In this document: positions 27,583-45,745 of the stretch, piece after piece | How positions within the stretch are numbered: the stretch's first letter is position 1 | Layout: each line of letters opens with the position of its first letter | Assembly (NCBI RefSeq): GCF_000027125.1 | Contig: NC_017627.1 | DNA from: Escherichia coli 042 | GTDB taxonomy: Bacteria > Pseudomonadota > Gammaproteobacteria > Enterobacterales > Enterobacteriaceae | Length of the DNA stretch: 64,000 nt | Strand: one strand, 5' to 3' | Notes under the pieces: generated by a model | Seen by the model: only the letters and a program-made list of their open reading frames with translations | Databases searched by the model: none | Told to the model about the DNA's origin: nothing | Translations under genes and position numbers: made by a program

Positions 27583-28320
27583 TTAATTCACAGAAACAGA
27601 CCAGGTGTACCCTGTATGCCGGTGGTGATACCCGCCTGCAGTCCTGCCGGAAGAGACCTTCTCTGTAACAATGTCAGTCAGGCGCAATACTTCAGACCAG
27701 TCACTCCCGTGCGGAAACTGGATCTGAATAAAAAGGCGTACCCGTTCACGGTGATCCAGAACTGTGTCCGGTTCATAAAAACGGCCACTGTCAGGAGAAA
27801 CACGGGACGTTTTATTGATGAGATCATACTTATCGGCAGGAGACTGCGATGACAGAGACCAGGTAATATTTTCGCCCTGATGACCATCAATACGACTGCT
27901 CCCCGGCGTCCATGCAATTTCCTGCGCACTCGCCACGATGATCTCCCTGGAGACTTCTGCCAGCTTTCTGGGTGTACCGAATACCGGTGCCAGCACACAC
28001 AGGGACAACAAATTACAGCTGACCGCTTCCGGTTTAAGCGAATTGCTCCCGGATTTTTCAGGAAAAGATATTTTTGTCAGTATTTCAGTTAATTCCTTAT
28101 GCCTGAGAGAATTAATAAAGTACATGATAAGCATCATGAGAAACAATATAACAATAAGCCCTCCGATAACCACTAAAAGGTTAGTATCAATATTATTGCT
28201 GTACAGATAGTCTTTAGTGGTCACTGTATTATCCTGTATCACCGGGGGGTATTCAGTTACAGGCTTCTCAGTAAATTGATTATTCTCACCAACATATTCA
28301 GCGATATTGTCTGATGTCAT
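27583..28320 (-). CDS. hypothetical single-pass membrane protein inserted between traT and traD (about 245 aa)
   Basis: Start [10 protein letters not shown].. with SD GGAGAAA 8 nt upstream; one TM helix [22 protein letters not shown]; 5-prime half is AT-rich. No recognisable family. Confidence 0.55.
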
Positions 28321-28522: not shown

Positions 28523-29254
28523 TCAGAGAATATTTGCGATTGATTTGGCCAGCTGGTCTTCGAGAACAGGCTTCGCCTCTTCAAATTTCAGGTTAACCTT
28601 GTTCGCATTTGAGACCACACGGGTCTGGTATTTATGCTGGTTACCCGTTTCAGTACTGGTCTGAATTTTCGCACCGGATGTGCCCTGACGCAGGGCGGCA
28701 ACATTATCCGTTGTCACCGTTGCCTTAGTACGCTCTGCAATCTGTACATCCGTGATCATGGTATAGTTCACATCTTCCACCATCGCATCTGCAGCCATAC
28801 CCACCAGACCGGCAGCAAGGCCTACACCGAGTGTGGCACCGGCAGAATTTGAGTTATAGCCGGTAATACCGGCACCTAACGCTGCACCAACAGCTGCGCC
28901 TTCATAACCACGGTTCAGCCATCCCTGAGACTCCCGCAGATCCATCTTATCAGCCTTCAGCACATTCGCCTGAATCCAGTAGTAGGCTTTATCCGGAGAA
29001 GTCACCACCTGATATCCTTTTGCTTTCACAGCATCAGCAATTTTGCCCTGCAGCCCACTCATGTCTTTATCAGACGTGTTTTTGATCTGCAGAAATACCG
29101 TGCGTTCGCTGTCGGGTTTAAGCCAGATGGTCTCACTCATCTGAGTCTTCACCTCAAGGTTACGCTTCTTGATTGCTGTGCTCATCGCACCACACCCTGA
29201 AAGGGCCAGAGTGGAACTGACCAGTGCAACCATCATCAATTTTTTTGTTTTCAT
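28523..29254 (-). CDS. traT: surface exclusion lipoprotein TraT
   Basis: [26 protein letters not shown].. lipobox; 243 aa from the internal start. Confidence 0.9.
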
Positions 29255-29285
29255 CAAATTACCTTTATTACAAACCACAGTTTTC

Positions 29286-29789
29286 TTATCGCCTGTCATC
29301 ATAGTCCTGCCAACAAGTCCCAAAAGTATTTCCTGCTGAATCAAATCCTCCATGCATAGCTAATCCTGTTGCCGGATTAGTACGATAAAAATCCACATAA
29401 TCAAAATTCACATCATCAAAATCCAGATGCAAATCTTCATTAGTTTGTTCATTTACCTGAGATTGCATCCATTCTCTTACACTTACACAACCACTAATTC
29501 GCCTTAATTCGTATAGTGTACCAATGATAAAAACCATCAGGCTTAATAACGGAGAGAGTAAGGAAGATAATGGCATCAGTATATACCAAACGCCTTTACT
29601 GAATTTAAACTCATCCGACACATGCCGTTTTTTTCGTATTTGAGAAAACAACCATATAAACAATCCCTGCCATAGTACAATAAAGCACAGGATAAAAATT
29701 GTTTCGGCACTCCCCCAATCAGCCAGATAACAGGCAATGAACTGTATCACCGTCACCAGAGCAATATGAGCTAAATTTTTCATTATCAT
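29286..29789 (-). CDS. traS: entry exclusion protein TraS
   Basis: 167-aa hydrophobic protein between traG and traT. Confidence 0.75.
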
Positions 29790-29803
29790 CTCCCCATACG
29801 ATA

Positions 29804-32626
29804 TTATTGCTTGTGCTTATCCTGATACTCCTTTGCTCTTTTCATCAGTTCCTGTGGACTGTCAGCACCAGGCATTCTTTCCTGACCCGATTTTTCTTCA
29901 TTATATTTATTATTCTGAGATAATGCCTCTGTTTTATGGTGATTTTGTAGTTCAGAATACTGTCTTCCTACAATATTTTCTTCGCCACGTATGCTGCTCT
30001 GAGTATCTCCGATATTGCCACGATATTCTGTGACCATATTATCAACCTGATGTTTTACATCATTACGGATATTACTGTCCTGCGTTCTTTGCTCAATAAT
30101 GGCCTGATGTCCCTGATGGTCAGCAATAATATTCTGGCTGCCACCGCCCGAAGGTACGCTCTCCATTCCTTTACCGATGTCCCCACGGGATTCACGCCAG
30201 GCATTATCAACACCAGGCTGTACCTGTTCCTGCACAAAAGACCACGCCATAGCCCGACGGCGTTCTGCAATCTCCGGCGAACTGGTATTTGTCAGAATAG
30301 CTTCTGCATCCTGCGGTGCGCGTTTCATCACATACTGTGCAAACTGTTGCGACAGGTCTTCACTCATCTGCCCGCTCATGCTTTCAGTACGGGAGGCCAT
30401 TTCCGCATATTCATGGCTGCGGGTCATATTCGTCGTGTACTGGTCGTAACTCTGTTTCGCTGAGTTCAGGGCTGCAGACAACTGATCCACACGGGAATCG
30501 GCATTATTGTCCGTATGGCTGCCGGATTCACTGACCTTGCGACTGGTAAAGTAATCGCTGGCCTCTTTAAAGTCTTGTGTAGCCCTGGCATCGATATCAT
30601 GGCGAGCATCATGGCTGGCCCGTGAACCACTGCTGGCCTGATGCGCATCCTCATCACTCCAGTCAATACTTGCCCGACCACCACCTCTAACACCTGCGCC
30701 ACCACCAACACCAAGAATTTTAGGTTTAACCCCCCATTCAGCATGAACATCGCCATACATCCCCGCAGAACCTCTCGTACTTCTTGATGCCAGTTCTCTT
30801 GTTGCCTGCTCATTACTGATATTATGCGCCTTCGCATAGCTTTCCACTGCACTGCGCATACGGCTGGCCATCATGGAGTCCTGTGCACTCATGGTGCTGT
30901 CAGCGCCACCGGTGACAGAATCACTGCTCCCCCGGTTAGAACCAAACTGACTGAGCGAGTTCCAGGCACTGGCAATACTGCTGCTGAAACCATGCAGGGC
31001 ACTTTCTGCTCTGTTCGACGCCTCCCGGGCCATTTCCTGTTGTGCCGCTGCAATCTGACGCGTTGCATTGATACCAACCGGTAACCGGGACATCGCTCCG
31101 CTTGCATCCATCACCATATTACCGTCACGGGTCTGTGTGGCAGTTGCGCCACTGCCGGTCTGGTACATCATCTGACCAAACGACGTGGTGCTGTTGGTGC
31201 TCCAGCTGAAGCCGTTCACGTTTTCCGTCTGCATGTTGCCGTAGGAGTAATTACCGTCAACCACACTGCCTGCTGCACTGGCCGTCGGACTGATAGAGGA
31301 AGAGGCGAAGTGGCTGTACACGCTGGAAAAACCTGCGCCAAGGCCTTTTACCATCATCCATGACAACGGGGGGATCATGGCTGAAAGATACCCGGCAGTA
31401 GAGGCCAGGTCAGAGTATTTCAGCTGTATCTGAGAGAGTTCAGACAGCACGACCGGCGCACCATTCATCTTCGCATAGAATGTCATGGCACTGTTCAGAA
31501 TGGCATACAACAACGGCCAGGTCTGCAGCCACATCAGGGCAAACACATAGCCTTTCAGGACGGACAGTGTCAGTTTGTTGAAGACAGCTGCCAGTACCAG
31601 AAGCGGGAAAATACCAATGGCAATTCCCGTCAGGATAGTCTGTACCATTGGCAGGTTTCGCATTGTCACATGACCGATAGAGACATGCGCCAGACGTTGC
31701 TTCTCCATCGATGACGTGGTGGCCAGATTCACCAGGCTGGCGGTGTCACCATTACGGGCGGCATTACTGGTGATACCCTCTTTCAGGGCATTCATGGTGA
31801 CGTTCTGGCGCATAATCTGGCTGGCAGACTGACTGGAGCCGTAGAAATAACTGTAACTGTCACTGACCAGTTGTCTGAATAACAGGTCCGGGTCCGGTCT
31901 GCCGCCAAATATCTGCTGCACATAATAATGCCAGGTCTTGCCTCCCGTCTTTGTATCGAGATTCAGCCTGTCTTTCAGCGTGACCGACGCATCCTTACAG
32001 GTTATGAAATTATTATTGTTGTCATAAACGCCCCGTAGCGGGCTGGGTCGGGAAAAAATCAGCGTGTAGGGGTCAGCGGAGGCCATCAGATCTTCCAGCG
32101 TGTATTTATGATTCAGGTAAATATCACCCAGCACGCAGTTCTGGACGTAGTCCTGGAACAGATTGATGATTTCCGGATTCCGGGACAGGAAATCGGTGCT
32201 TTTCACAATCAGATTCGCCCCGAACAGCATGCCTGTCTTGCTGTAGGTGACGCTGTCCGGTTGGGTGAATATCATCTCGTAGCTGACCACCATCGCATGC
32301 CCGATACGTGTCGTCAGTGAAAGTGGCATCGCCAGACCGACCGGCACATTATCCACCCGATGGACTTTGACCAGGTCACTGTTATCAATAATCTGCACCG
32401 ATGTGCGGACATTAACCAGCAGGCTGATAAGCACAAACACCGCCACCCAGCCCAGTAAATCCATCACGTTGTGCCGCTGTACCCACATAAAAGCCACAGC
32501 AACAACAGACAGGGTGAGCGCAATTTTTTCAATGGAATCCCAGGTCCGGGTACTCATAAATGCTGCAATGGCATTCAGGTTGTTACGCAACCACTCACCA
32601 CCGGCAATCACATAAACTTCATTCAC
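29804..32626 (-). CDS. traG: mating-pair stabilisation / entry-exclusion partner TraG
   Basis: 940-aa polytopic N-terminus plus large periplasmic domain; position in tra order. Confidence 0.9.
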   Translation of the reverse strand: MNEVYVIAGGEWLRNNLNAIAAFMSTRTWDSIEKIALTLSVVAVAFMWVQRHNVMDLLGWVAVFVLISLLVNVRTSVQIIDNSDLVKVHRVDNVPVGLAMPLSLTTRIGHAMVVSYEMIFTQPDSVTYSKTGMLFGANLIVKSTDFLSRNPEIINLFQDYVQNCVLGDIYLNHKYTLEDLMASADPYTLIFSRPSPLRGVYDNNNNFITCKDASVTLKDRLNLDTKTGGKTWHYYVQQIFGGRPDPDLLFRQLVSDSYSYFYGSSQSASQIMRQNVTMNALKEGITSNAARNGDTASLVNLATTSSMEKQRLAHVSIGHVTMRNLPMVQTILTGIAIGIFPLLVLAAVFNKLTLSVLKGYVFALMWLQTWPLLYAILNSAMTFYAKMNGAPVVLSELSQIQLKYSDLASTAGYLSAMIPPLSWMMVKGLGAGFSSVYSHFASSSISPTASAAGSVVDGNYSYGNMQTENVNGFSWSTNSTTSFGQMMYQTGSGATATQTRDGNMVMDASGAMSRLPVGINATRQIAAAQQEMAREASNRAESALHGFSSSIASAWNSLSQFGSNRGSSDSVTGGADSTMSAQDSMMASRMRSAVESYAKAHNISNEQATRELASRSTRGSAGMYGDVHAEWGVKPKILGVGGGAGVRGGGRASIDWSDEDAHQASSGSRASHDARHDIDARATQDFKEASDYFTSRKVSESGSHTDNNADSRVDQLSAALNSAKQSYDQYTTNMTRSHEYAEMASRTESMSGQMSEDLSQQFAQYVMKRAPQDAEAILTNTSSPEIAERRRAMAWSFVQEQVQPGVDNAWRESRGDIGKGMESVPSGGGSQNIIADHQGHQAIIEQRTQDSNIRNDVKHQVDNMVTEYRGNIGDTQSSIRGEENIVGRQYSELQNHHKTEALSQNNKYNEEKSGQERMPGADSPQELMKRAKEYQDKHKQ

Positions 32627-33996: not shown

Positions 33997-34408
33997 CGTT
34001 ATTCCCCTCCCTGAAACTGTTCTCCCGGCGCATACGGCGTTTCAGCCGGAATATCCTGATCCCCCCGTTTATTAATTCATTCAAAGGGTTCCTGACGTAT
34101 ACGATAAGAAATCCACCTGCAAACGCCCATAACGTATACGGAATGACATACATCAGGATGTTCCACATATAACGAAAATTATTTAATTCCGGGTCAGCTT
34201 TCCACGAATCAATACAGGCATCAAAAATACTGTGCATAATCACCCATAAAAAAGTTCCGGCAGCAACGAACACAAAAAACAGATCAAAATATATATCAGA
34301 AACCCTGCATTCATAATCATAATCCCGTTTAGTTTTTCTGTTTTTTAGTTCCGCATCATTTCTTTTTTCTTTCATTATAAGTTTCCTCTGATATTTCTGA
34401 TGATTCAT
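33983..34408 (-). CDS. trbF: TrbF
   Basis: Small membrane protein between traH and trbJ; true start may be internal. Confidence 0.65.
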   Translation of the reverse strand: MNHQKYQRKLIMKEKRNDAELKNRKTKRDYDYECRVSDIYFDLFFVFVAAGTFLWVIMHSIFDACIDSWKADPELNNFRYMWNILMYVIPYTLWAFAGGFLIVYVRNPLNELINGGIRIFRLKRRMRRENSFREGNNDASH

Positions 34409-34643
34409 TCAGACCGGTCATGCGGCTGTAATATATTTCAGACACCAAAATCCATCCCACAATTGCTCCCACAAAAAACACAACAGAAACAGAAAAGGTA
34501 AGACACAGCGAAACGACAATTTCCACAGGGCTGGCGGGATAAAAAAGCCCCTGACGGATAAAGGGGATATTCAGGCTGACGATTATTCCCGTCGCGACGC
34601 CGGATATTCCGGCAATGAGTAACACCACCTGCTTATTTCGCAC
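34356..34643 (-). CDS. trbJ: TrbJ
   Basis: About 95-aa membrane protein; likely GTG start with SD GAGAGG upstream. Position-based. Confidence 0.55.
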   Translation of the reverse strand: MRNKQVVLLIAGISGVATGIIVSLNIPFIRQGLFYPASPVEIVVSLCLTFSVSVVFFVGAIVGWILVSEIYYSRMTGLNESSEISEETYNERKKK

Positions 34644-35449: not shown

Positions 35450-35575
35450 GTTAAACTCCGGTTATTATTTACATGAGAATATTCATGTCTGTAATATTCG
35501 CGTTTGTGTGATATTAATCAGATCAACCTCATTATTTTGTATGGTTTTTATTACCGTTTTATATGACTTAGCCTG

Positions 35576-35914
35576 TCATAAGCCCCTTATAAAAAACCAC
35601 ATCACTCCGGACCATGCCGATGACAACATAATACAGATAAATATTCTTCTGAACCTGTCGAAGCTCGTAACGTTCGGTAATGAACCAATAACCATTGGAA
35701 CAACCATTGCTGCGCCCTGATTCATAATTGCACCACACAGAAACCAGAGACTGGCGGTAAGCACATATAAACACGCGATATTAATAACAAGGAAAACCAG
35801 TGAACTCAGGAGAAACATTTTCCTGTCATTACGCTCAGAAAAGAAATAACCGGCAATAATGACAAATATTAACAGAACAACACCTGTAAACATTTTCAAA
35901 TAATCTTCACTCAT
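35576..35914 (-). CDS. trbA: TrbA
   Basis: 112-aa polytopic membrane protein between traF and traQ. Confidence 0.65.
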   Translation of the reverse strand: MSEDYLKMFTGVVLLIFVIIAGYFFSERNDRKMFLLSSLVFLVINIACLYVLTASLWFLCGAIMNQGAAMVVPMVIGSLPNVTSFDRFRRIFICIMLSSAWSGVMWFFIRGL

Positions 35915-35929
35915 AAATCAAATCCGCGA

Positions 35930-36706
35930 TTAAAAATTTGGTTTAAAATCTTCAGAAACGTTCAGGAATTGTTTTGCCAGGTCGTCCTGCGAAATAAAGC
36001 CGTATGATAACGGGCGAACACTGCCCTGTTTCGGGTCAACCAGCATCATGGCCGGGAAATATTTCACGCCGAGGCGCTGCGCCTGCCCCTGGTCAGTCCG
36101 GGAATCCGGCAACAGCGGATTAATCACGCCATCCACGGAAACGGGAATAACACTCAGACCATACGTATCCCGGAAGCCATTAATGACCTGCGCCAGCTGC
36201 CCGTCGATGGGGTCCTGCCCCCGGTAAAAAAACATGATGCCGTAGTGTTCAGCCAGTTTCGCAATGGCCTGTCGCTGCTGCGCCTGGTCTGCCGCCAGCT
36301 GGTTCCGTACCGTGCCGTTGTAATGGCTGTACTGCAGGTTATAGTCCAGTTCGGGATGTGCCAGCATGGCCTTTTTAGCACTCATGGTGAAAAGCCCGGC
36401 CTGCTGAGTCCAGTAATTCTGCAGCCGGAAATATTTAACAAAATTATCCACGCCGGGATACAGAATGGCTTCGTACAGCGCCCGCTTTGTTGCCGTCTGC
36501 AGCGCGGCCAGTTTCTGCATAATATCCGGCTCCTGACGGGGGGCTGCAGGTACAGGTTTATTTTCTTTTTCCTTCGGATTTATTTTCTCGTTATACCACT
36601 GCCAGCCTGCATCTTTCCCTGACGCCGGAAAAATAAAGCAGCAGAGTAACAGTGGCAGTAATGCTTTATTCATCTTCATTCCTTTCATCATTTTTTCTTT
36701 CATCAT
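35930..36706 (-). CDS. traF: pilus assembly protein TraF (thioredoxin-like fold)
   Basis: 258 aa; signal peptide; position. Confidence 0.9.
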   Translation of the reverse strand: MMKEKMMKGMKMNKALLPLLLCCFIFPASGKDAGWQWYNEKINPKEKENKPVPAAPRQEPDIMQKLAALQTATKRALYEAILYPGVDNFVKYFRLQNYWTQQAGLFTMSAKKAMLAHPELDYNLQYSHYNGTVRNQLAADQAQQRQAIAKLAEHYGIMFFYRGQDPIDGQLAQVINGFRDTYGLSVIPVSVDGVINPLLPDSRTDQGQAQRLGVKYFPAMMLVDPKQGSVRPLSYGFISQDDLAKQFLNVSEDFKPNF

Positions 36707-36926
36707 CTTTCTGCAGGCCAGTCAGGGCAGAAAAACAAAAATACAGAATAAACAGGAGCACACCGGAGTAAAAAATAACAAAACAAGCAGCAAGCATCTC
36801 ACCTGCAGTGGTTTCTTTTACCGTATCCCACGACCAGATAATTACCGGGGAAATGACAATCGCTGTAATCAAAAGCCGGATAAGAAAATCAATAAAACGG
36901 TTCGACGTGAATATGACTTTCATCAT
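36666..36926 (-). CDS. trbE: TrbE
   Basis: 86-aa membrane protein; position. Confidence 0.7.
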   Translation of the reverse strand: MMKVIFTSNRFIDFLIRLLITAIVISPVIIWSWDTVKETTAGEMLAACFVIFYSGVLLFILYFCFSALTGLQKDDERKNDERNEDE

Positions 36927-36949
36927 TTCCCCCGGTTATTTTCCATACC

Positions 36950-38800
36950 TTACTGTCCTGCCTGTTTCAGCTGGTCAGCAATCTGCTCTTTCACTTTCTG
37001 CGTCAGAACGCCACTGTCCGGGATTTTCTGGTTATTCATCAGGTCTTCGTAGAAGTTAGTGAAATCCAGTCTGTCGAACTGAATTTTCTGCAGCTCATCA
37101 ACCGTAATCCCCCGACAGTCAGGATGCTTCGCACTGCCAAACCCGATACGCAACTGCCCGTTACGCCCCTGCTGCTGAACTATCTGCGCCAGCTTCGAAT
37201 CAAACTGACAGTAGCTGCGTTTTTTCTGCAGACAGACCCCCAGCACCTTTTTCGAACAGAACTCACCCACACTCACCGTCAGTTTATTGTCCTTTGCCTT
37301 TCCCAGCGCCTTTTCTTCACTGTTACACTTCGCCAGCCCCACATCCTGACCCCAGCCGCCATCCTTACAGCAGTTACTGAAGCCGGCTGCGGCCTTACGG
37401 CAGAATTTCGCCTCACCCGTGAAAGCCCTGACATCCACACCATTCAGGGCGGCAACATCCTTACCTGCGGCGGCAAGCGCAGCCAGCTGTGATACTGCTT
37501 CACCAAAATCACTGCTTTTTCCGCTCTGTGCCTTATCGCATTCACCGTCAAGGCAGAAGACATCACCACCACAGACCATCACTTTTCCTGATGTTTTTGA
37601 CTCGCAGGAGTACGTGGCGTACTCATGCAGACAGGTTCCCTCATCGGAATAAAACGCGCACTGACGTGAGGCCAGCGTACAGGCCGGATTATCGACATAT
37701 TTCTGACAGGTGCCGTTATCTGCGGACTGAGTGACATATTTATCCCGGTATGCCCAGCATGCCTGTGTGATGTTCCAGGGTTTACCTTCCATCACTCCGG
37801 TTTTCGTACCACCCGGCTCTGAACACTCAGTGCCTGTCAGCACGCCATCCGCTTTATTAAACGGACAACTCTCCACCCACTCCACCCGGGGAACCCATTC
37901 TTTATCACGGACCTTCATCCTGAGTTTCAGCGTAAAGGTGGAAGCACCACTGACAAGCGATTCATAGACTTTCCTGTCACCATTCCCGTGCGGGAGGCAA
38001 TTACCGTTAGCAGTACAGCCACTACCGGTCAGAACCTGCCCCTGTGTCACCTGCAAACCTGTCGCCCCGGACAGGGGGTAAGTATCCGACTGCCCGTTTG
38101 CCAGGCCGACATTAAAGGTTGTATTCATGAAGGTATAACGGGAGTTCAGGAAGAAAAAAGCGGCGTATACAGACAATGATGCACTTTCCACTGTACCGGT
38201 TACCGGAGCCGTGACACTGAACACCAGTTTCAGACCGTTCATACTGAACCGGAACTGTGAGTGCGGTATCGTCACCTCACGATATTCATCCGTGTATTTC
38301 CAGTCCCCGGTGATACTGGCAGTCCGTGTGCAGTACTCCTCCACCATCGTGTCCCGCTCACAGGTATAGTTTGTGAACTCACTGCGGTTTATCTGCTGCG
38401 CACTGCACTGCTGCCCGGTGTTTCCCACAATGCTGTCAGCCCGGTTCACCACATCCCTGCCGGTCTGAATGAACGGTGCATCCGGTGACAGAATGTCTTT
38501 CGGCTTGTTCATGAAGGACTCTGTGATGGTTTTTCCGGTTTCACCTGTCGCCCATTCCGTGGTGCCGTCATTTTTCAGGCCGCCATCCCCGCCGGCAGTC
38601 ACGCCACCGTAATATTTTGTCTCGTCCGGATTCGCGTTATAGCCGGGGATACTCTCCTGTGGCTTAAAGCTCTGAATACTGCCTGTACCCTGCCCCTGAA
38701 TCTGACGGGCAAAATCAGAACCGGCCCGGTAATCACTGTTGCTGTCAGCCTGTGCCATGCCGGCAACCAGAGCCAGTATCAGAGGTAAAATACGTTTCAT
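36950..38800 (-). CDS. traN: outer-membrane mating-pair stabilisation protein TraN
   Basis: 616 aa; signal peptide; many Cys. Confidence 0.9.
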   Translation of the reverse strand: MKRILPLILALVAGMAQADSNSDYRAGSDFARQIQGQGTGSIQSFKPQESIPGYNANPDETKYYGGVTAGGDGGLKNDGTTEWATGETGKTITESFMNKPKDILSPDAPFIQTGRDVVNRADSIVGNTGQQCSAQQINRSEFTNYTCERDTMVEEYCTRTASITGDWKYTDEYREVTIPHSQFRFSMNGLKLVFSVTAPVTGTVESASLSVYAAFFFLNSRYTFMNTTFNVGLANGQSDTYPLSGATGLQVTQGQVLTGSGCTANGNCLPHGNGDRKVYESLVSGASTFTLKLRMKVRDKEWVPRVEWVESCPFNKADGVLTGTECSEPGGTKTGVMEGKPWNITQACWAYRDKYVTQSADNGTCQKYVDNPACTLASRQCAFYSDEGTCLHEYATYSCESKTSGKVMVCGGDVFCLDGECDKAQSGKSSDFGEAVSQLAALAAAGKDVAALNGVDVRAFTGEAKFCRKAAAGFSNCCKDGGWGQDVGLAKCNSEEKALGKAKDNKLTVSVGEFCSKKVLGVCLQKKRSYCQFDSKLAQIVQQQGRNGQLRIGFGSAKHPDCRGITVDELQKIQFDRLDFTNFYEDLMNNQKIPDSGVLTQKVKEQIADQLKQAGQ

Positions 38801-39447
38801 TTCCCGGAATCTCCTTTCCCTGCCAGTAAATCATGAGCCACCTGCCGGCAGTCACCCGTGGCGGCAACTTTCTCCAGCGCCTGCCTGACGCGCAGATTTC
38901 CCCGGATGATGTCGTGCCCCTGGCTGCAGAACACCACCAGGGCCGGAACGCTGCGAATGCCGTACTGTGAAAACAGCGTCGGGTCGATCTGAACACCATC
39001 AGTTGCGCCGTCTTTCACCAGGGACAACACGGCGTCAGCCGTGGCCTTCAGGTCGTTGTTCACCATGCCCCGCAGCGTGGCGGGAATACCGTAGTGCCGG
39101 GTTTCGCTCAGCATCCTTTTCAGCCCCTCTTCGGGTATGGAAAACGACACAAAATACAGGGCACCCTGCCGGGGTTTCCCGTCCTGCGAAGCCTGCTGTT
39201 TACGAACCAGCTCATCCAGAAAATGGTTATCTGAACGCTGAAGGGGGTTTTCCAGCACCTGTTTCTCCGCCCAGGCTTTCAGCTGATGGTCAGGTTTCTC
39301 TCGCAGTTGTCTGCTTAAATTTTCCTGCTGCTTCAGGAACTGGCGGTTTTCAGTTGTGTTCACATTTTCTGAAGCATGAACAGCAAGATGCATCCCTGCT
39401 GTCAGAGCAAAAAGTGCAAATATTTTCCGGTTCATGATATTTCTCAC
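38797..39447 (-). CDS. trbC: TrbC
   Basis: 216 aa; signal peptide; position. Confidence 0.85.
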   Translation of the reverse strand: MRNIMNRKIFALFALTAGMHLAVHASENVNTTENRQFLKQQENLSRQLREKPDHQLKAWAEKQVLENPLQRSDNHFLDELVRKQQASQDGKPRQGALYFVSFSIPEEGLKRMLSETRHYGIPATLRGMVNNDLKATADAVLSLVKDGATDGVQIDPTLFSQYGIRSVPALVVFCSQGHDIIRGNLRVRQALEKVAATGDCRQVAHDLLAGKGDSGK

Positions 39448-39755
39448 TTTCTGCTATTTACAGGCATGAACTCATCAGAAAAAAGATAATTGAGAAAAAC
39501 AGCCATAAACACACATGTAAATGTCACCTTCAGATATAATCTGACAAGTGTCACTTGTTCTGATATATCTGCCTTCTTCCATTCATGAATAATTTCAGCG
39601 AGAAAACTGTCAGGTGCAAAATAAAATAATATAACGGGCACCATTACAAGACCAAAAGGAAATAAATTTAATGTTCTGCTTATCAGCCTGAGCAGCACAG
39701 CACCTATTTTCCTGAGGTGCTGAATATATTTACTGTCCATTGTTGCCATTTTCAT
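39444..39755 (-). CDS. hypothetical small membrane protein between traU and trbC (103 aa)
   Basis: SD AGAGGAAATG.. before MKMATMDSKYIQ..; two hydrophobic segments; stop overlaps the trbC start. Not in canonical F order as I recall it. Confidence 0.5.
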   Translation of the reverse strand: MKMATMDSKYIQHLRKIGAVLLRLISRTLNLFPFGLVMVPVILFYFAPDSFLAEIIHEWKKADISEQVTLVRLYLKVTFTCVFMAVFLNYLFSDEFMPVNSRK

Positions 39756-39778
39756 TTCCTCTTATTCATTAAAATGAT

Positions 39779-40771
39779 TTACAGGAATACACAGTTACGT
39801 TTACGCCACATCAGGTAGCCGAAGTTTTTCTTTGTGTTGGGCGGATTTTTTCCCGTCTCCCAGCGCATCACACTGCGCCCGAACGGATGGCACTGTCCGC
39901 TGTCCGGATACATATTCACCATCTGATAACGCCAGCGTTCTTTGGGCAGGATTGGGGACGGATATTCATTACAGACGGCGTTATTTTTCCCGATGGTTTC
40001 CATAATCATGCCCTGACGGTGCAGCTTGAATGCCATGCGTTCACTGACCAGCAGGGAGGACTGCAACGGACTGGACTCATTACTCACCCAGCCATTGAAC
40101 GGGTACATACTGCCCTGCGAACCGGCACACCAGAACAGAACATCGAGAGGCATATTAAAGGCACTGGCAATGGCATCTGCTGCGCAGGCCCCCTGTGCTA
40201 TCGGATTGGCAAAAATGACGGCTTCCGGGTTGAGAATGGTGGTCAGGCTGCTGTCCGTCCAGGTGGGGTCGATTTCAGAAAGATAAGCGATATCCAGGTC
40301 ACCACCTTCCAGACAGCCCAGCGATGTGATGATGTTCAGCCAGTACGTCAGCGGGTATTTGTACCAGTGAACGTGATAGAACGCCCCGTTCACCTGCTTC
40401 TCATCCTTTTTCGCCGTTCCCTGTGCCGTTTTACCAAAAGCCGGCAGGCTGAAGCCCAGGTTAACCATGCATCCCGGTGATCGGGTGACGTCCGTCAGCG
40501 CCATCGGCTCCCAGTAACCAATGGCCAGCCCGATACGCCTGAACAGCGGCGGCGGTGCCGGACAAATCTGAATGGGCATCGACGGGTTCGCCGTGTCGGG
40601 GACCTTACCCTGACTGACTTTGATACTGCCCAGCGAGAGCGGGAAAATACAGCTCCAGCAGATATCCGTGATCGGGTTTACAAAACGCCCCTCACAGGCA
40701 GAATCCGCAGACGCCGCAGGGACATGACCGGCGAGAAGGAATAACATCAGCAGCCACAGTCTTCGCTTCAT
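39779..40771 (-). CDS. traU: TraU
   Basis: 330 aa; signal peptide; position. Confidence 0.9.
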   Translation of the reverse strand: MKRRLWLLMLFLLAGHVPAASADSACEGRFVNPITDICWSCIFPLSLGSIKVSQGKVPDTANPSMPIQICPAPPPLFRRIGLAIGYWEPMALTDVTRSPGCMVNLGFSLPAFGKTAQGTAKKDEKQVNGAFYHVHWYKYPLTYWLNIITSLGCLEGGDLDIAYLSEIDPTWTDSSLTTILNPEAVIFANPIAQGACAADAIASAFNMPLDVLFWCAGSQGSMYPFNGWVSNESSPLQSSLLVSERMAFKLHRQGMIMETIGKNNAVCNEYPSPILPKERWRYQMVNMYPDSGQCHPFGRSVMRWETGKNPPNTKKNFGYLMWRKRNCVFL

Positions 40772-41783: not shown

Positions 41784-44407
41784 GCAACACTCCTGTATTT
41801 CTCATGTTCTTCCAGCCAGGCCTCCAGCGAAGCCATCTCCGGCCCCGATTTCTTCCACGCCAGCTGCCACACCGCCTCATGAATACTCATACCCTCTCTG
41901 CGTTTCTGCTGCACAAACTCAAAATCCGGGCCGTCAGAGCTGTACATGGCACGGCTTAACGGGTCCACAAACAGACGGTGCCAGGAGGAATGGTTTTCCA
42001 CCTGCAGCAGGAAGGAACTGAACCACTGGTCTTTGGCCGCACCAAACTTACCAATCATGTCGCGCTGCAGTGGCAGGAACTGGTCCGGATACAGCTGGTT
42101 GTATTTCGCGAACTCCTTCGCACTCTGTTTGAGGATAATTTTGTAGGAGGAGTTACCCCATGCCGCGCGGGCCGCACTGGAGGCCTTGTCAGAGTCAAAG
42201 TCGACGATGTTCTGTGTGATGGTGATATAGGCACCGGTATGACGGCGGGCGGTACGGTAACCTTTCTCAATAAATTCACCGACCTTGTGATTTTTGAAGT
42301 CCAGCAGACGCCAGCCTTCATCAATGACGTTCAGTTTCTTGAGGTTACGCGGCGTGCGGTACATCCGGTTCTCAATGTAAATGATAAGGCTGAACATCAC
42401 CGCAACCAGCAGGGACGGACGGTCTTCCAGTCCGCCCAGCTCCAGCACCACCATTTTCGCATCATCCCGCAGGGACGGCTCATCGGAGTTGAAATACTGG
42501 CCATAAGTGCCGTTAGCAGTGTACTGGTCAAGCAGCACAATCATTTCGTCCAGACGGCTGCGGATAGTCGGTGACTCTACATACTGGTCGTTATCACGGG
42601 CGTTTTTCAGGAAATCCACCACATCATCGATGCGCGCCTTATTCTTTTTAGCCAGCCAGGAGGCCCTGACCGCCTGCAGCAGCAGACCTTCATGCACTTC
42701 ATCCAGGTTACCGTTGGGGCTGGCCATCACCGACAACTGGTCGCGGACACGCTCCGCTGACTGGTCAATATCGGTGATGTTCGCAAACGGGTTAAAACGC
42801 AGGGTTTCACCGTCCAGATATACGCCCCCCATGTTCTCACACAGGGACTTGTAGCCATCCCCCATGTCGAACACCACGGCAAAGCCCCCGGAGTCCAGCA
42901 CGCTGCGGATAAGTGGCTGTATCAGCCCGGTTTTACCGGCCCCGGAGGTGCCACAGACCGCCATGTTGTAGTTGGTGTTATTCATCCCCCGGAAGAAAAT
43001 ATCGATAAACGCCAGCTGATTACGGTAGGTGGGTGCCAGCAGACCTGCCGGTGTCAGGGGGTTATCCGCCACTAACGGCATCAGGTTGGCCACATTAAAG
43101 CTCTCTGCGCGCTGTACCACTCCGGCCTCTTTCAGCTGTTTAAACAACCCTTTCCCGGCCATAAAGGGCAGGCAGGTCAGGAAATTGCGCATGTGGTTAA
43201 AGCGCGGTGAAATCAGCTCAAAACCGTTTTTACGGAAGCTGTTCAGGATGTCCTGCTCCACTTCCAGCGCCGTTTCATTATTGTCCTTGCAGAATGCTGT
43301 GATGTTGAGGAAGTAGGACACGACAGAGGACTGACCGGAGCCCAGCCGCTGACGCAGTTCCCCCCACTCCTTCGCCTCTTTCTCCACGGACGGAAACCAT
43401 TTGGCATAGGAGGTCTTCGACTTTTTCTCCAGGTCCATGTACTTCAGGTTGGCTTCGCTGTGAGTTTTCACCTGGTCTTCCACCACCAGAGTCAGCGTCA
43501 GGATGAACGGACAGGAGATGGACAGTTCCGGGTTCAGCAGGTTGCTGTAGTTGTCGGCCATGTTCCACAGGAAGGCGATTTCCGGGTTACGGGCCAGATG
43601 GAAATTCAGGATGCGGGCCGTGCTGTTCCTGCCGTTCTCACGCAGGCCCAGCGTCAGGTAATCCGCCCGGACTTTCAGGTCAAAACTGTCCTCCACACAC
43701 TGATAATTCAGATCAGAATACGGGTCCAGCTGACGTCTTTTCGGATACAGGGAGTCCGGGTTATGGTTAATCATCTCCCCGACAATATCGATAAAGGCCT
43801 GTGCATCCACCGCCTGTGTGGTGATACTGGCCCCCTGTAACGACGCCCGGATGATTTTCACCAGGTTTTCCATTTCCAGAATGTCAGCCCGGCTTTTTTT
43901 CTTCGAGGGAGAACAGTACGAGAAGAATACCCGGTAATGGCGCAGGGTCAGGGGCAGATTCATCCCCTCCGGCAGCGGAAACTGTGTCGCTGCCGCGTTC
44001 ATATAATAGGCACGGGTAATGGCGTTAAACCGTTCAGCCTGTTCACCGGACCAGGAGAACTCACGCAGCCCGTATTCAATTCTGTCACCAACAAGCTGAC
44101 TGGACATCAGATGGATGCAGAACGGCACTCCGCGCGGCAGTTTGGTGCGCAGCATGTGGTCGAGCGCCTCCACAATGGACTCATTCGCCCCATTGATGGG
44201 AATGGCTTCCAGCATAAAGCCCATCGTGGTGTCATTCATGAACAGACCGGATTCCTGGTTATAATCACGGTACGGCAGCAGACGGCTGAACTGCGGGAAG
44301 CTCATTTCGCCCAGAACTTCATTGGCCTTTGCGGATTCGTCAGGCAGTTTCAGTGCTGTGACGAGGGAGTTAACCGCCTGAGTGACGGCCTCAAGTGGGT
44401 TATTCAC
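41780..44407 (-). CDS. traC: VirB4-type ATPase TraC
   Basis: 875 aa; Walker A ..GTSGAGKTG.. Confidence 0.95.
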   Translation of the reverse strand: MNNPLEAVTQAVNSLVTALKLPDESAKANEVLGEMSFPQFSRLLPYRDYNQESGLFMNDTTMGFMLEAIPINGANESIVEALDHMLRTKLPRGVPFCIHLMSSQLVGDRIEYGLREFSWSGEQAERFNAITRAYYMNAAATQFPLPEGMNLPLTLRHYRVFFSYCSPSKKKSRADILEMENLVKIIRASLQGASITTQAVDAQAFIDIVGEMINHNPDSLYPKRRQLDPYSDLNYQCVEDSFDLKVRADYLTLGLRENGRNSTARILNFHLARNPEIAFLWNMADNYSNLLNPELSISCPFILTLTLVVEDQVKTHSEANLKYMDLEKKSKTSYAKWFPSVEKEAKEWGELRQRLGSGQSSVVSYFLNITAFCKDNNETALEVEQDILNSFRKNGFELISPRFNHMRNFLTCLPFMAGKGLFKQLKEAGVVQRAESFNVANLMPLVADNPLTPAGLLAPTYRNQLAFIDIFFRGMNNTNYNMAVCGTSGAGKTGLIQPLIRSVLDSGGFAVVFDMGDGYKSLCENMGGVYLDGETLRFNPFANITDIDQSAERVRDQLSVMASPNGNLDEVHEGLLLQAVRASWLAKKNKARIDDVVDFLKNARDNDQYVESPTIRSRLDEMIVLLDQYTANGTYGQYFNSDEPSLRDDAKMVVLELGGLEDRPSLLVAVMFSLIIYIENRMYRTPRNLKKLNVIDEGWRLLDFKNHKVGEFIEKGYRTARRHTGAYITITQNIVDFDSDKASSAARAAWGNSSYKIILKQSAKEFAKYNQLYPDQFLPLQRDMIGKFGAAKDQWFSSFLLQVENHSSWHRLFVDPLSRAMYSSDGPDFEFVQQKRREGMSIHEAVWQLAWKKSGPEMASLEAWLEEHEKYRSVA

Positions 44408-44566
44408 ATGAATTCCTTAGTTGAAAAATAAAGCGAGAAATGCGGTAGCCATGAAGGGAATACCTGTAATTAACGCGCCATTTCCCGGCGCATATACAAA
44501 GATTTCGGTTTTCTGAATATCAACTCATGTTCATCCGGAATTAAATCAATATGTTCTGCGACTGAC

Positions 44567-44788
44567 TTATGCATAATGTTTTCTCTGCTTTTCCTGATAC
44601 GCCTGACATTCAACGCACAACGTCACACCGGGAAATATTTTCCGCCGGGCTTCCGGAATAGGATTTCCGCATGCTTCACAGAGATAAACAGGAATACCAT
44701 GAGCATTTATTTTCTGGCGTATCCGGTTTATTCCTGTCATGGTCAGTTGTTCTGTTACTGAATATGCTTCATCGACTTCATCACTCAC
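44567..44788 (-). CDS. traR: TraR (DksA/TraR C4 zinc finger)
   Basis: 73 aa with CEACGNPIPEARRK...CVEC. Confidence 0.9.
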   Translation of the reverse strand: MSDEVDEAYSVTEQLTMTGINRIRQKINAHGIPVYLCEACGNPIPEARRKIFPGVTLCVECQAYQEKQRKHYA

Positions 44789-44922
44789 GGAATATTCCTC
44801 CCGACATGTTCTGACACGCTACCGCCCATCCCTTTTCACGCACAGGGCACTCGTTTTACAGGCAGATTTTGAATACAGAAAGCCCGCCGGCATTGCCGGC
44901 TGATATACAACTTCAGGGCCAG

Positions 44923-45438
44923 TTAATTAATACGTGGTTTTCCCCACGCAGACGGTTTAATAACAAAAAACACACTGGATGGCTGATGATAAACATCCTG
45001 ATTATCAATATAAGGCGCTATCCATAATGCAGCCGTCTGCTCACCCGTTCTTAGCGGGCGGGGAGGTGTTACCGGCGCAACTGAACTGACCGGAACAATC
45101 GTTTTCACTTCCCGGGCAGCCGTAAACAACGGACGTGGTGCCAGCAGTTTCTGCTCCGGAAGTGCCGTCACCGCAGGTCTGCTGCCGGACGGAGTGGTCG
45201 CGGTGACGGTCTGCACCGGCATTGTCCGGAAGTTCCCTTCAGCCAGGCGCGGCAGTGATGCCGCAACCGGCTTTGCTTCTGAGGACTGCTCCAGTTTTTT
45301 GGCCTTCTCATTGGCCTGCTCCATCGTCATACAGGTATCGGATGTGGTGGCGTTACACTCAAATTCCGTATTTGTTCCTGCGCAGCCGGAAAGTAATAAG
45401 GTTCCCAGCAGAGGAATAAATAAAGAAATCTGTTTCAT
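44923..45438 (-). CDS. traV: lipoprotein TraV
   Basis: 171 aa; lipobox LLSGCAG. Confidence 0.9.
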   Translation of the reverse strand: MKQISLFIPLLGTLLLSGCAGTNTEFECNATTSDTCMTMEQANEKAKKLEQSSEAKPVAASLPRLAEGNFRTMPVQTVTATTPSGSRPAVTALPEQKLLAPRPLFTAAREVKTIVPVSSVAPVTPPRPLRTGEQTAALWIAPYIDNQDVYHQPSSVFFVIKPSAWGKPRIN

Positions 45439-45745
45439 TGCCCTTCTCCTTTTTTATTACTCCCCACAACAGCAGAAATTAACTCTGCTGTCAGATTTGT
45501 TTTTCCTGCACAGGGTTGTCCGGAGACTACTGTATTTCCCGGAGAAGAAAATAAGCTCATCGATATACCCTTCTTCATCACACCGACAGCTGCCATATTA
45601 AAATTGTGCGGCAATGATTCAGAACTGAACAGCTTCGGAGCAGGAAGAACTATTTTTGTGGTGCAGTTACTGAGAACAGCATTCATAAAATCATCTGATA
45701 CGCTTTTATCCGGTACAGAGCGTGCAGTAATAATATTAATATTAC
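45435..45745 (-). CDS. small tra ORF(s) in the trbD/trbG position
   Basis: Frame between traP and traV; exact starts and the two-gene split unresolved. Confidence 0.4.

What the first reader, a model, noticed from the sequence alone, without database searches (positions are those of the whole stretch)
39444..39755. Small two-helix membrane ORF between traU and trbC
A 103-aa ORF with its own SD is wedged between traU and trbC, with its stop overlapping the trbC start (ATGA-type coupling). I do not recall a gene at this position in F, so it may be a lineage-specific accessory component of the transfer apparatus or an unrelated passenger.
Basis: partly seen in the sequence, partly recalled or inferred. 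Interest (0 to 1): 0.4.

Follow-up and report, generated by a model that had tools for sequence, protein, structure and literature searches.

The report
Small membrane gene between traU and trbC
This is a real but already catalogued, uncharacterised gene for a 101-residue two-helix inner-membrane protein; it is an optional, swappable AT-rich insert in the transfer operon of R100-type F-like plasmids, absent from F itself, so it is common and dispensable, not new.

Summary
The ORF exists on the minus strand (39444-39755) between traU (39779-40771) and trbC (38797-39435). It most likely starts at the second ATG (39749), giving 101 aa, 8 nt after a GAGG. The claimed stop/start overlap holds only for an unlikely GTG. 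The conserved trbC ATG lies 8 nt past the stop.

F lacks the gene; traU and trbC there are 8 nt apart. R100 has it at 94% identity, as do about 1,150 plasmids and 815 of 5,426 complete E. coli genomes, always as "hypothetical protein" (once "yfdA").

Diverged relatives (23-63% identity) occupy the same junction in pSLT-like, pHN7A8-like and other F-like plasmids. A 105-aa subfamily sits beside a secreted nuclease in IncX-like plasmids. The family matches no Pfam, NCBIfam, PADLOC, PHROG or PDB entry, and has only 34 representatives among 1.84 billion proteins.

It is coding: motifs are conserved and dN/dS is 0.16-0.7. It is far less constrained than traU or trbC, is 35% GC against 55% flanks, and is exchanged as a cassette. 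Predicted topology is N-in/C-in with an acidic periplasmic loop.

Best reading: a dispensable accessory membrane protein co-expressed with the transfer machinery. Its function is unknown. Interest is low to moderate.

The parts
39444..39749 (-). CDS of the 101-aa small membrane protein, TGA stop at 39444-39446. An alternative upstream ATG at 39755 would give 103 aa.
   Evidence: ORF list and sequence. RefSeq annotates the identical sequence as WP_000224413.1, hypothetical protein. R100 carries the 94%-identical WP_000224416.1 at the same position. Family conservation is shown. dN/dS is below 1.
39757..39763 (-). Shine-Dalgarno-like AAGAGGA. It lies 8 nt upstream of the ATG at 39749 and 2 nt upstream of the ATG at 39755.
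   Evidence: Read from the sequence. A similar AGAGGA is present upstream of the homologues in M11 plasmid C, the S. Poona plasmid and pHN111RT-4.
39612..39671 (-). Codons 27-46: predicted transmembrane helix 1 (LNLFPFGLVMVPVILFYFAP). It carries the conserved K-L-F-P-F and F-Y-F-x-P motifs at its two ends.
   Evidence: Kyte-Doolittle maximum of 2.04 over 19 residues. AlphaFold2 helix 4-44. Invariant P31, F42, Y43 and P46.
39549..39611 (-). Codons 47-67: acidic loop with a short amphipathic helix, predicted periplasmic. Contains invariant W57 and near-invariant D61.
   Evidence: Charge count in the window protein is KR 2, DE 5 for residues 47-66. Family means for residues 47-69 are KR 1.9, DE 4.7, against KR 4.3, DE 1.5 for the N-terminus. 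AlphaFold2 helix 47-59.
39480..39548 (-). Codons 68-90: predicted transmembrane helix 2, with the conserved L-V-R-L-Y-L-K start.
   Evidence: Kyte-Doolittle 1.87. AlphaFold2 helix 62-89. L71, Y72 and L73 are conserved.
39436..39443 (-). 8-nt spacer (GAAATATC) between the ORF stop and the conserved trbC ATG.
   Evidence: RefSeq coordinates on the identical plasmid.
38797..39435 (-). trbC (212 aa). Its 5' ~240 nt share the low-GC, variable character of the cassette.
   Evidence: Pfam TrbC_Ftype. GC3 is 0.46 in the first 240 nt against 0.71 in the rest. Identity to F drops to 45-63% in the first ~60-90 nt. Identity to pHN111RT-4 is 65-87% over the first ~270 nt and 87-97% over most of the remainder, falling again in the last ~40 nt.
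39779..40771 (-). traU (330 aa). It is conserved right up to its stop codon, which is the sharp left edge of the variable cassette.
   Evidence: Pfam TraU, E=6.7e-110. Identity is 98-100% in the last 60-nt windows against R100 and pHN111RT-4, and 87-97% against F.
39200..39780 (.). AT-rich island (34-39% GC across the ORF, against ~55% in the flanks). It is the lowest-GC 300-nt block in the tra operon downstream of the traJ/traM region.
   Evidence: Composition profiles. The ORF has GC 0.356 and GC3 0.33, against traU GC3 0.665.

Best explanation
The ORF is a genuine protein-coding gene. It is the R100-type allele of a small (~100 aa) family restricted to conjugative plasmids of Enterobacteriaceae.

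Expression (inferred). It lies inside the long tra operon, on the same strand. No promoter-like or terminator-like site lies in or next to it. It is therefore transcribed with traU and trbC whenever the transfer genes are on. It has its own ribosome-binding site, and its stop is 8 nt before the trbC start.

Product (predicted). The protein is an inner-membrane helical hairpin. A positively charged N-terminus and the C-terminus face the cytoplasm. A ~20-residue acidic loop with an invariant Trp faces the periplasm.

Role (partly shown, partly inferred). It is not part of the core F-type machine. F and many other F-like plasmids lack it, and a subfamily lives in IncX-like plasmids that have a VirB-type system without TraU or TrbC. 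It belongs to an AT-rich, hypervariable cassette that starts exactly at the traU stop and runs into the 5' part of trbC. This cassette is exchanged between otherwise near-identical backbones by recombination. In sister cassettes the hairpin is followed by, or fused to, a ~170-aa soluble protein.

My best guess (inferred, not shown) is that it acts as a membrane anchor or adaptor for an accessory function of the donor cell envelope that matters when the transfer apparatus is expressed. That function would be of the conflict or specificity type, not pilus assembly. In the R100-type cassette the hairpin works alone.
For: Gene reality:
- The ORF length is unlikely by chance (35 of 20,000 shuffles).
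- Homologues of 23-63% identity keep the length and the motifs KLFPF, FYFxP, W57, D61 and LYL.
- dN/dS is 0.16-0.68 in diverged pairs.
- 1,757 of 2,013 plasmid matches cover at least 80% of the protein.

Operon context:
- TraU and TrbC flanks.
- No promoter-like site in 38700-40300, and the single terminator-like site lies inside trbC (39156-39169), not in or beside the ORF.
- SD and spacing.

Topology:
- Hydropathy and charge and the AlphaFold2 model.
- C-terminal fusions to a protein without a signal peptide: P0150 with 335 members, P0189 on 73 contigs.

Dispensability and cassette behaviour:
- F has an 8-nt junction, and an uninterrupted F-type junction is common.
- TraU is 99.7-100% identical between window, R100 and pHN111RT-4, while the ORF is 42-46% identical. 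ORF dS is 1.04 against traU dS 0.075.
- The left edge is sharp at the traU stop.
- Within the R100-type allele, ORF pS is 0.016, against 0.055 for traU and 0.21 for trbC, with pN/pS 0.73.
- GC is 0.35-0.44 in F-like copies against 0.46-0.57 in their flanks (0.50-0.57 in all but the S. Poona plasmid). In IncX-like plasmids GC is 0.37 against 0.39-0.40 in the backbone.

Second transfer system: the IncX-like loci have VirB8/9/10/11, VirD4, Cag12 and TrbM, then the family member, then SNase.
Against: - No experiment, and no published statement about this ORF, was found. The function is inference only.
- The tight placement next to trbC, and the co-variation of the TrbC N-terminal third with the ORF allele, would also fit a direct role with TrbC.
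- The partner protein seen in sister cassettes is absent from the window, so the 'anchor' idea may not transfer to the R100-type allele.
- Short-term pN/pS of 0.73, and a private N28 in place of the near-invariant K28, could mean the gene is drifting towards loss in this lineage.
- The AlphaFold2 model has only moderate confidence (pLDDT 75), and no dedicated topology predictor was available.
Confidence: 0.62

Rival explanations
1. It is a lineage-specific auxiliary subunit of the F-type pilus-assembly complex. It would work directly with TrbC, TraW or TraU, for example by tethering or positioning the TrbC N-terminal region at the inner membrane.
For: It sits between traU and trbC with close spacing to both. 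The N-terminal third of TrbC co-varies with the ORF allele: 77% identity where the ORF is 42%, and 100% where the ORF is 94%. It is annotated by some submitters as 'putative conjugative transfer protein'.
Against: F transfers well without it (junction; F's transfer proficiency is established knowledge). The co-variation with TrbC is explained by physical linkage within one recombining cassette. A subfamily sits in IncX-like VirB-type systems that have no TraU, TrbC or TraW. The family HMM shows no similarity to any F or R100 tra/trb product.
Confidence: 0.17
2. It is a polymorphic conflict determinant that works like TraS or a superinfection-exclusion protein. It would be a small inner-membrane protein that blocks entry of something using the transfer apparatus or pilus, such as pilus-specific phage, a competing plasmid, or redundant mating.
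For: The evolutionary pattern is that of traS. Both are AT-rich islands in the operon: 39400-39700 at GC 0.35 and the traS region 29200-30100 at 0.37-0.38. Highly diverged alleles sit on near-identical backbones. Constraint is weak. The gene is present in two unrelated transfer systems. It is dispensable.
Against: No sequence or fold similarity to TraS, to known exclusion proteins, to phage families or to defence-system proteins. There is no functional data. Both plasmid types already carry dedicated exclusion genes: traS/traT here, and a Cag12-family protein in the IncX-like plasmids.
Confidence: 0.12
3. The protein is irrelevant or decaying. What matters is the AT-rich DNA, acting as a cis element inside the operon (for example an H-NS binding patch or an internal promoter for trbC and downstream genes). 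Alternatively the ORF is a spurious or remnant reading frame.
For: A 35% GC island sits in a 55% GC operon. Short-term pN/pS is 0.73. Rare truncated or frameshifted variants exist in databases.
Against: No sigma-70-like promoter on either strand. Conservation is at the protein level across 23-63% identity with a maintained frame and motifs, and dN/dS is well below 1 at depth. The ORF length is unlikely by chance. The great majority of copies are intact.
Confidence: 0.05
4. It is a holin-like or toxic small membrane protein, either a pore former that helps release a periplasmic or secreted enzyme, or a membrane toxin of an addiction module.
For: Predicted two-helix N-in/C-in topology with a charged C-terminus resembles class II holins (the resemblance rests on my own knowledge). 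In IncX-like plasmids it overlaps by 4 nt the start of a staphylococcal-nuclease-type gene.
Against: That nuclease has its own typical Sec signal peptide. No endolysin, antitoxin or antisense promoter is nearby. There are no PHROG hits. It is embedded in an operon that is constitutively expressed in derepressed plasmids, without known toxicity.
Confidence: 0.04

Closest known systems
R100 (NR1) ORF between traU and trbC, WP_000224416.1. The same ORF is labelled 'yfdA, putative conjugative transfer protein' in pEFC36a (JX486126).
   Same: Same position, same length (101 aa), 94% amino-acid identity, same leader and SD, and the same 8-nt spacer before trbC. The window's exact protein is RefSeq WP_000224413.1.
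   Different: Six amino-acid substitutions: G16S, N28K, M36I, K59N, V80A and M82V. The window allele has N28 where the family nearly always has K.
Diverged members of the same family at the traU-trbC junction of other F-like plasmids (pSLT-like pSARA13, pHN7A8-like pHN111RT-4, E. coli M11 plasmid C, and E. fergusonii and S. Poona plasmids).
   Same: Same junction, same size (97-111 aa), and the same motifs and hydrophobic pattern.
   Different: Only 23-63% identical. They are often accompanied by further ORFs: a 150-173-aa soluble protein, a 154-aa P-loop-like protein, and membrane proteins of 144 and 148 aa. In one lineage the hairpin is fused to the 173-aa protein, giving 259 aa.
105-aa ORF of IncX-like (VirB-type, ~30-34 kb) plasmids between trbM and a secreted SNase-type thermonuclease (for example P0137; pDD521.3).
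   Same: Same family (37-39% identity over ~70% of the query; all motifs shared). A similar leader sequence lies upstream of the SD. It is encoded in the transfer-gene block.
   Different: A different type IV secretion family with no TraU or TrbC. It overlaps the nuclease gene by 4 nt. Its GC matches the host backbone there.
Small non-essential membrane proteins of the F tra operon (TrbE, TrbD, TrbA, TrbJ, ArtA).
   Same: Small, hydrophobic, embedded among essential pilus genes, often AT-rich, and dispensable for transfer. This is the same kind of thing by analogy (dispensability from my own knowledge of the F literature; composition).
   Different: No sequence relationship. The family HMM finds nothing else in the F tra region, in R100 or in the window. 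The position in the operon is also different.
TraS entry-exclusion protein of F-like plasmids.
   Same: An inner-membrane protein encoded in the tra operon. It is AT-rich, with extremely diverged alleles on conserved backbones (for composition; allele divergence of traS from my own knowledge).
   Different: TraS is larger (about 150-170 aa) and lies between traG and traT. There is no detectable similarity, and exclusion activity of this ORF is untested.

Membership tests
R100-type traU-trbC junction ORF (WP_000224416 / 'yfdA' group) | At least 90% amino-acid identity to the R100 ORF | tested here: met
   94.1% identity to R100. 1,156 plasmid records carry a copy at 90% or more (173 + 488 + 495).
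R100-type traU-trbC junction ORF (WP_000224416 / 'yfdA' group) | Located immediately downstream of traU and upstream of trbC on the same strand | tested here: met
Wider ~100-aa two-helix plasmid family (no database name) | Motifs K-L-F-P-F, F-Y-F-x-P-[DE], W, D and L-Y-L in a ~100-aa protein with two hydrophobic helices | tested here: met
   Alignments. The window has N in place of the K of KLFPF. The profile search recovers 204 clusters.
Named F-type Tra/Trb protein families (core or auxiliary) | Sequence homology to a named Tra/Trb product or a Pfam/NCBIfam transfer-protein model | tested here: not met
   No Pfam or NCBIfam hit above noise. The family HMM against all ORFs of the F tra region, R100 and the window finds only itself.
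Named F-type Tra/Trb protein families (core or auxiliary) | Presence in F and requirement for transfer or pilus formation | tested here: not met
   Absent from F. Requirement in R100-type plasmids cannot be tested with these tools.
TraS-type entry exclusion | Gene between traG and traT; ~150-170-aa polytopic inner-membrane protein | tested here: not met
   Different position and size.
TraS-type entry exclusion | Reduces DNA entry when expressed in recipients, with allele specificity matched to donor TraG | not testable with these tools
   Needs mating assays.
Class II holins / phage superinfection-exclusion membrane proteins | Two transmembrane helices with N-in/C-in topology | tested here: inconclusive
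   This topology is predicted from charge bias, from the AlphaFold2 model and from the C-terminal fusions. It has not been measured.
Class II holins / phage superinfection-exclusion membrane proteins | Homology to phage families, or linkage to an endolysin or lysis cassette | tested here: not met
   No PHROG hit at E<0.05. No lysis genes nearby. The adjacent nuclease in IncX-like plasmids has a Sec signal peptide.
Known anti-phage defence system proteins (PADLOC) | Match to a defence-system protein model | tested here: not met
   0 families at E<=10.
Type I toxin (Hok-like) modules | Peptide under ~60 aa with a single helix, own promoter and an antisense RNA | tested here: not met
   101 aa, two helices, and no promoter-like site on either strand.

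The most novel reading that the evidence does not exclude
The family is a mobile, polymorphic 'conflict' cassette that different conjugation systems (F-type and IncX/VirB-type) have recruited into their transfer operons. It would be a small inner-membrane protein, alone or with a ~170-aa cytoplasmic partner, that protects the donor while the apparatus is exposed. Possible targets are pilus-dependent phage, a rival plasmid or redundant mating. Allele swapping would be driven by an arms race, as for traS/traG.
Probability: 0.13. Interest if true: 0.6.

Novelty: already known. Interest (0 to 1): 0.3.

Why it matters
R100-type F-like plasmids are leading carriers of resistance and virulence genes. 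This window is an enteroaggregative E. coli virulence plasmid. About 15% of complete E. coli genomes carry this exact allele. A membrane protein made together with the transfer machinery, with no known function, is therefore a small but real gap in the parts list of a very well-studied system.

If it modulates transfer efficiency, phage sensitivity or plasmid competition, it would be relevant to plasmid spread. In practice, the traU-trbC junction is a recombination and cargo hot spot that could serve as a typing marker.

As it stands, the finding is an ordinary, already annotated hypothetical gene.

Tried and rejected
- Domain and family searches gave nothing above noise: Pfam, NCBIfam, PADLOC and PHROGs.
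- A profile search of PDB sequences gave 0 hits.
- Foldseek of the AlphaFold2 model against PDB gave no hit at E<=0.001, as expected for a bare helical hairpin.
- The exhaustive phmmer search of 1.84 billion representatives found only the same narrow family.
- To get at function through the neighbour, I modelled the 173-aa partner protein of the sister cassettes. Mean pLDDT was 54, too low for a fold search, so none was run. Pfam found nothing for it or for the other cargo ORFs, apart from a sub-threshold AAA_14 match for one 154-aa ORF.
- The partner, a second copy of the family and the IncX-type nuclease are all absent from the window.
- The idea of an internal promoter or terminator in the AT-rich island: there are no promoter-like sites, and the only terminator-like site lies inside trbC (39156-39169), away from the ORF.
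- The idea that the IncX nuclease needs a holin-like helper: the nuclease has a normal Sec signal peptide.
- I looked for the origin of F's own trbC signal-peptide coding stretch in the other cassettes, to decide whether F is a deletion derivative. No similarity was found, so the direction of the event is unresolved.
- Six literature searches and four papers read gave no statement about this ORF. The 'Five shades of F' comparison used only F proteins as queries, so it could not have seen it.
Full report
**1. The observation**

The window holds an open reading frame at 39444-39755 on the minus strand, 103 aa from the first ATG. The gene upstream (39779-40771, minus) matches Pfam TraU at E=6.7e-110. 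The gene downstream matches TrbC_Ftype at E=1.1e-19.

Read on the minus strand, the junction is: traU TAA, ATCATTTTAATGAATAAGAGGAAATGAAAATGGCA. The GAGG lies 2 nt before the first ATG (39755) and 8 nt before the second (39749). RefSeq/PGAP, on a plasmid identical over this stretch, and the submitters of pEFC36a both annotate the 101-aa form. I take 39444-39749 as the gene.

Every TrbC homologue I compared starts M-x-(R/W)-K-I at the ATG that corresponds to 39435. The real arrangement is therefore TGA, then 8 nt, then ATG. This is close enough for coupled translation (inference), but it is not an overlap.

A 105-codon stop-free run in this 335-nt, 36% GC segment was reached in only 35 of 20,000 shuffles. 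No competing ORF of 40 aa or more lies on the other strand.

**2. Is it a gene?**

Yes. A translated search of 72,556 plasmids finds a relative in 2,013 records, and 1,757 of these cover at least 80% of the protein. By identity, 1,156 are at 90% or more and 851 are below 60%.

I inspected ten diverged copies from separate records: nine F-like and one IncX-like. All nine F-like copies lie in the traU-trbC interval:

- pSLT-like pSARA13 and a second Salmonella plasmid (P164045): 23-29% identity to the window protein in the global comparison.
- pHN7A8-like pHN111RT-4 and the Klebsiella plasmid pCRKP-30_KPC: 42%.
- E. coli M11 plasmid C and the E. coli plasmid p4-S1-CAM-01-A: 40-44%.
- An E. fergusonii plasmid: 52%.
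- A S. Poona plasmid: 63% by tblastn.

The IncX-like copy is treated in section 5.

These copies keep the length (97-111 aa). They also keep a clear motif pattern: K-L-F-P-F at the start of helix 1, F-Y-F-x-P-(D/E) at its end, an invariant Trp and a near-invariant Asp in the loop, and L-(V/I)-(R/K)-L-Y-L at the start of helix 2.

Nei-Gojobori dN/dS is 0.16-0.68 for diverged pairs. For the same pairs it is 0.02-0.10 for traU and 0.04-0.21 for trbC. The frame is under purifying selection, but much weaker than its neighbours.

**3. What the protein looks like**

Two hydrophobic stretches stand out: residues 27-46 (Kyte-Doolittle maximum 2.04) and 68-90 (1.87). AlphaFold2 with a 10-sequence alignment gives helices 4-44, 47-59 and 62-89, with mean pLDDT 75.

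Across 29 non-redundant members the charge distribution is as follows:

| Segment | Mean K+R | Mean D+E |
|---|---|---|
| N-terminus | 4.3 | 1.5 |
| Loop | 1.9 | 4.7 |
| C-terminal tail | 2.9 | 1.4 |

By the positive-inside rule this predicts an N-in/C-in topology with an acidic periplasmic loop.

Independent support comes from a recurrent natural fusion. In one lineage the hairpin is joined at its C-terminus to a ~170-aa protein that has no signal peptide. The result is 259 aa (cluster P0150 with 335 members; P0189 on 73 contigs).

**4. Relation to F, R100 and the rest**

F has no such gene. Its traU stop and trbC start are 8 nt apart.

R100 has the gene at the same place, 101 aa and 94% identical, annotated as a hypothetical protein. 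pEFC36a labels it 'yfdA, putative conjugative transfer protein'.

The R100-type allele (95% or more nucleotide identity) is found at 80% or more coverage in 815 of 5,426 complete E. coli genomes. Of its 896 places, 890 are on plasmids.

An uninterrupted F-type junction is also common. The first four rows of an evenly spaced 12-row sample of 4,368 matching records were uninterrupted junctions. That is roughly a third, and it is a rough estimate only.

Other plasmids hold other things at this junction. A Klebsiella IncFIB plasmid has an unrelated 58-aa hydrophilic ORF there. The E. fergusonii and S. Poona plasmids carry extra ORFs beside the family member.

**5. The family is narrow and unnamed, and not tied to the F-type machine**

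There is no Pfam, NCBIfam, PADLOC or PHROG match above noise. There is no PDB sequence match and no fold match.

A word-indexed profile search returns 204 clusters, all from Escherichia, Salmonella and relatives, none with a Pfam domain. An exhaustive phmmer scan of 1.84 billion representatives returns only 34. An HMM of the family finds nothing else in the F tra region, in R100 or in the window. It is therefore not a diverged copy of TrbE, TraQ, TrbA, ArtA or any other tra/trb product.

A 105-aa subfamily (37-39% identity over ~70% of the query; all motifs shared) sits in ~30-34-kb plasmids with a VirB-type system, TrbM, a Cag12-family protein, TopB, Hha and H-NS. I call these IncX-like on gene content. 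There the gene lies always just upstream of, and overlapping by 4 nt, a staphylococcal-nuclease-type gene. That nuclease has a normal Sec signal peptide, and it is homologous to the thermonuclease that R100 carries near finO. The window lacks it.

**6. It is part of a swappable, compositionally foreign cassette**

The ORF is 35.6% GC (GC3 0.33), against 55% for traU and trbC (traU GC3 0.67). The first 240 nt of trbC are also low, with GC3 0.46 against 0.71 in the rest. This is the lowest-GC 300-nt block of the operon downstream of the traJ/traM region. Only the traS region, at 0.37-0.38, comes close.

F-like copies are 0.35-0.44 GC in flanks of 0.46-0.57 (0.50-0.57 in all but the S. Poona plasmid). 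IncX-like copies are 0.37 in a 0.39-0.40 backbone, so the gene is compositionally at home there. The leader upstream of the SD (TTTT(G)TAATGAAT) is also shared between the two settings.

TraU is 99.7-100% identical between the window, R100 and pHN111RT-4, while the ORF is 42-46% identical and the TrbC N-terminal third is 77% identical. For the window against pHN111RT-4, ORF dS is 1.04 while traU dS is 0.075.

Identity profiles show a sharp left edge at the traU stop. The right edge lies inside trbC, about 60-90 nt in against F and about 270 nt in against pHN111RT-4.

Within the R100-type allele the reverse pattern holds. Across seven plasmids the ORF has pS 0.016, while traU has 0.055 and trbC 0.21. 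One young allele therefore sits on diverged backbones. Both patterns mean that the junction is exchanged by recombination.

In the S. Poona plasmid a copy of the traU 3' end lies directly upstream of the family member, 1.9 kb from the real traU end. This shows cargo inserted between the two.

Short-term pN/pS in the R100-type group is 0.73: seven amino-acid polymorphisms, mostly conservative, against three synonymous ones. The window allele carries a private N28 where the family almost always has K.

**7. How it most likely works**

Shown:
- It is a conserved coding frame in the tra operon with its own SD.
- No promoter-like or terminator-like site lies in or next to it.
- It is absent from F and present in a second kind of transfer system.
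- It behaves as a cassette.

Inferred:
- It is co-transcribed with traU and trbC and translated with them.
- It inserts in the inner membrane as an N-in/C-in hairpin.
- It is not a structural part of the F-type machine.
- In sister cassettes it is paired or fused with a cytoplasmic ~170-aa protein, so it probably acts as a membrane anchor or adaptor for an accessory function. In the R100-type cassette it acts alone.

The evolutionary pattern resembles that of traS more than that of pilus-assembly genes: dispensable, AT-rich, hypervariable alleles on conserved backbones, and weak constraint. I therefore lean to a conflict- or specificity-type role in the donor envelope. That step is a guess.

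Rivals, with my confidence in each:
- A TrbC-associated auxiliary subunit (0.17).
- An exclusion-like or anti-phage determinant, which is the novel reading (0.12).
- A cis-acting AT-rich element or a decaying frame (0.05).
- A holin-like or toxic peptide (0.04).

**8. Comparison with what is known, and novelty**

The gene itself is not new. It is in R100 and in more than a thousand sequenced plasmids, catalogued as WP_000224413 and WP_000224416.

I found no paper that names or tests it. The main comparative study of F-like transfer regions searched only with F proteins.

By analogy it belongs with the small dispensable membrane proteins of the tra operon, but it is not homologous to any of them.

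**9. Verdict**

- The gene is an already annotated, uncharacterised, optional cassette gene.
- Interest is low to moderate.
- The modest points of interest are its prevalence, its presence in two transfer-system types, the natural fusion to a cytoplasmic partner, and the cassette dynamics of the traU-trbC junction.

Noticed in passing
window 1-19000: This part of the window matches enteroaggregative E. coli pAA-type virulence plasmids (aggR, aap dispersin, AAF/II fimbrial genes aafA/aafD, IS66 copies, finO, an ANR-family regulator) at 97-99.8% identity. The window is therefore an EAEC virulence plasmid with an R100-type transfer region.
   Followed up: partly
window 38797-39435 (trbC), mainly its first ~240-270 nt: The 5' third of trbC (signal peptide and N-terminal region) shares the low GC3 (0.46 against 0.71) and the allele variability of the neighbouring ORF. 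F's TrbC has an unrelated signal peptide, then becomes near-identical from about residue 22. No source for F's version was found.
   Followed up: partly
L005 4043-4862; L006 3436-3855; L007 4049-4867; L011 3404-3823; L022 2650-3469: Many F-like plasmids carry a free-standing HNH endonuclease gene between trbC and traN, often with a 123-aa ORF. The window has none, and its trbC and traN overlap. A homing-type nuclease so close by could help drive the mosaicism seen in trbC and the junction cassette.
   Followed up: no
L008 about 2444-2488, just upstream of the family member: In the S. Poona plasmid a copy of the last codons of traU (aactgtgtgttcctgtaa) lies directly upstream of the family member, although the real traU ends 1.9 kb earlier. 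Two membrane-protein ORFs (144 and 148 aa) lie in between.
   Followed up: partly
proteins P0150, P0189, P0182 and P0186-P0188 (259 aa); L005 2489-3381 for the unfused pair: There is a recurrent natural fusion of the two-helix protein with the ~173-aa neighbouring ORF of pHN7A8-like cassettes. The largest cluster has 335 members. The fused hairpin has lost the FYFxP motif. The 173-aa protein has no Pfam match and modelled poorly (pLDDT 54).
   Followed up: partly
L013-L016 8001-8806; L010 2429-3231; L004 36670-37131: In IncX-like plasmids the family member overlaps by 4 nt a Sec-exported staphylococcal-nuclease-type gene. R100 carries a clear homologue of that nuclease near finO, unlinked to its copy of the two-helix gene. 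The window has no such nuclease.
   Followed up: partly
window 28000-28300, 29200-30100, 34000-34600, 35500-36100, 36700-37000, 44500-44800, 45400-45700: Other AT-rich islands (GC 0.37-0.43) punctuate the ~55% GC tra operon. By position, and from my knowledge of the F map, they coincide with the small, polymorphic or dispensable genes: the traS region, the trbA/traQ region, trbE, traR and trbD. The ORF studied here is the most extreme of them.
   Followed up: no
window 44408-44566, compared with L004 7699-9251: R100 has four hypothetical ORFs between traR and traC. The window has none there: traR at 44567-44788 is followed directly by traC, which starts at 44407, as in F. The window's transfer region is therefore a mosaic of R100-like and F-like junction types.
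   Followed up: no
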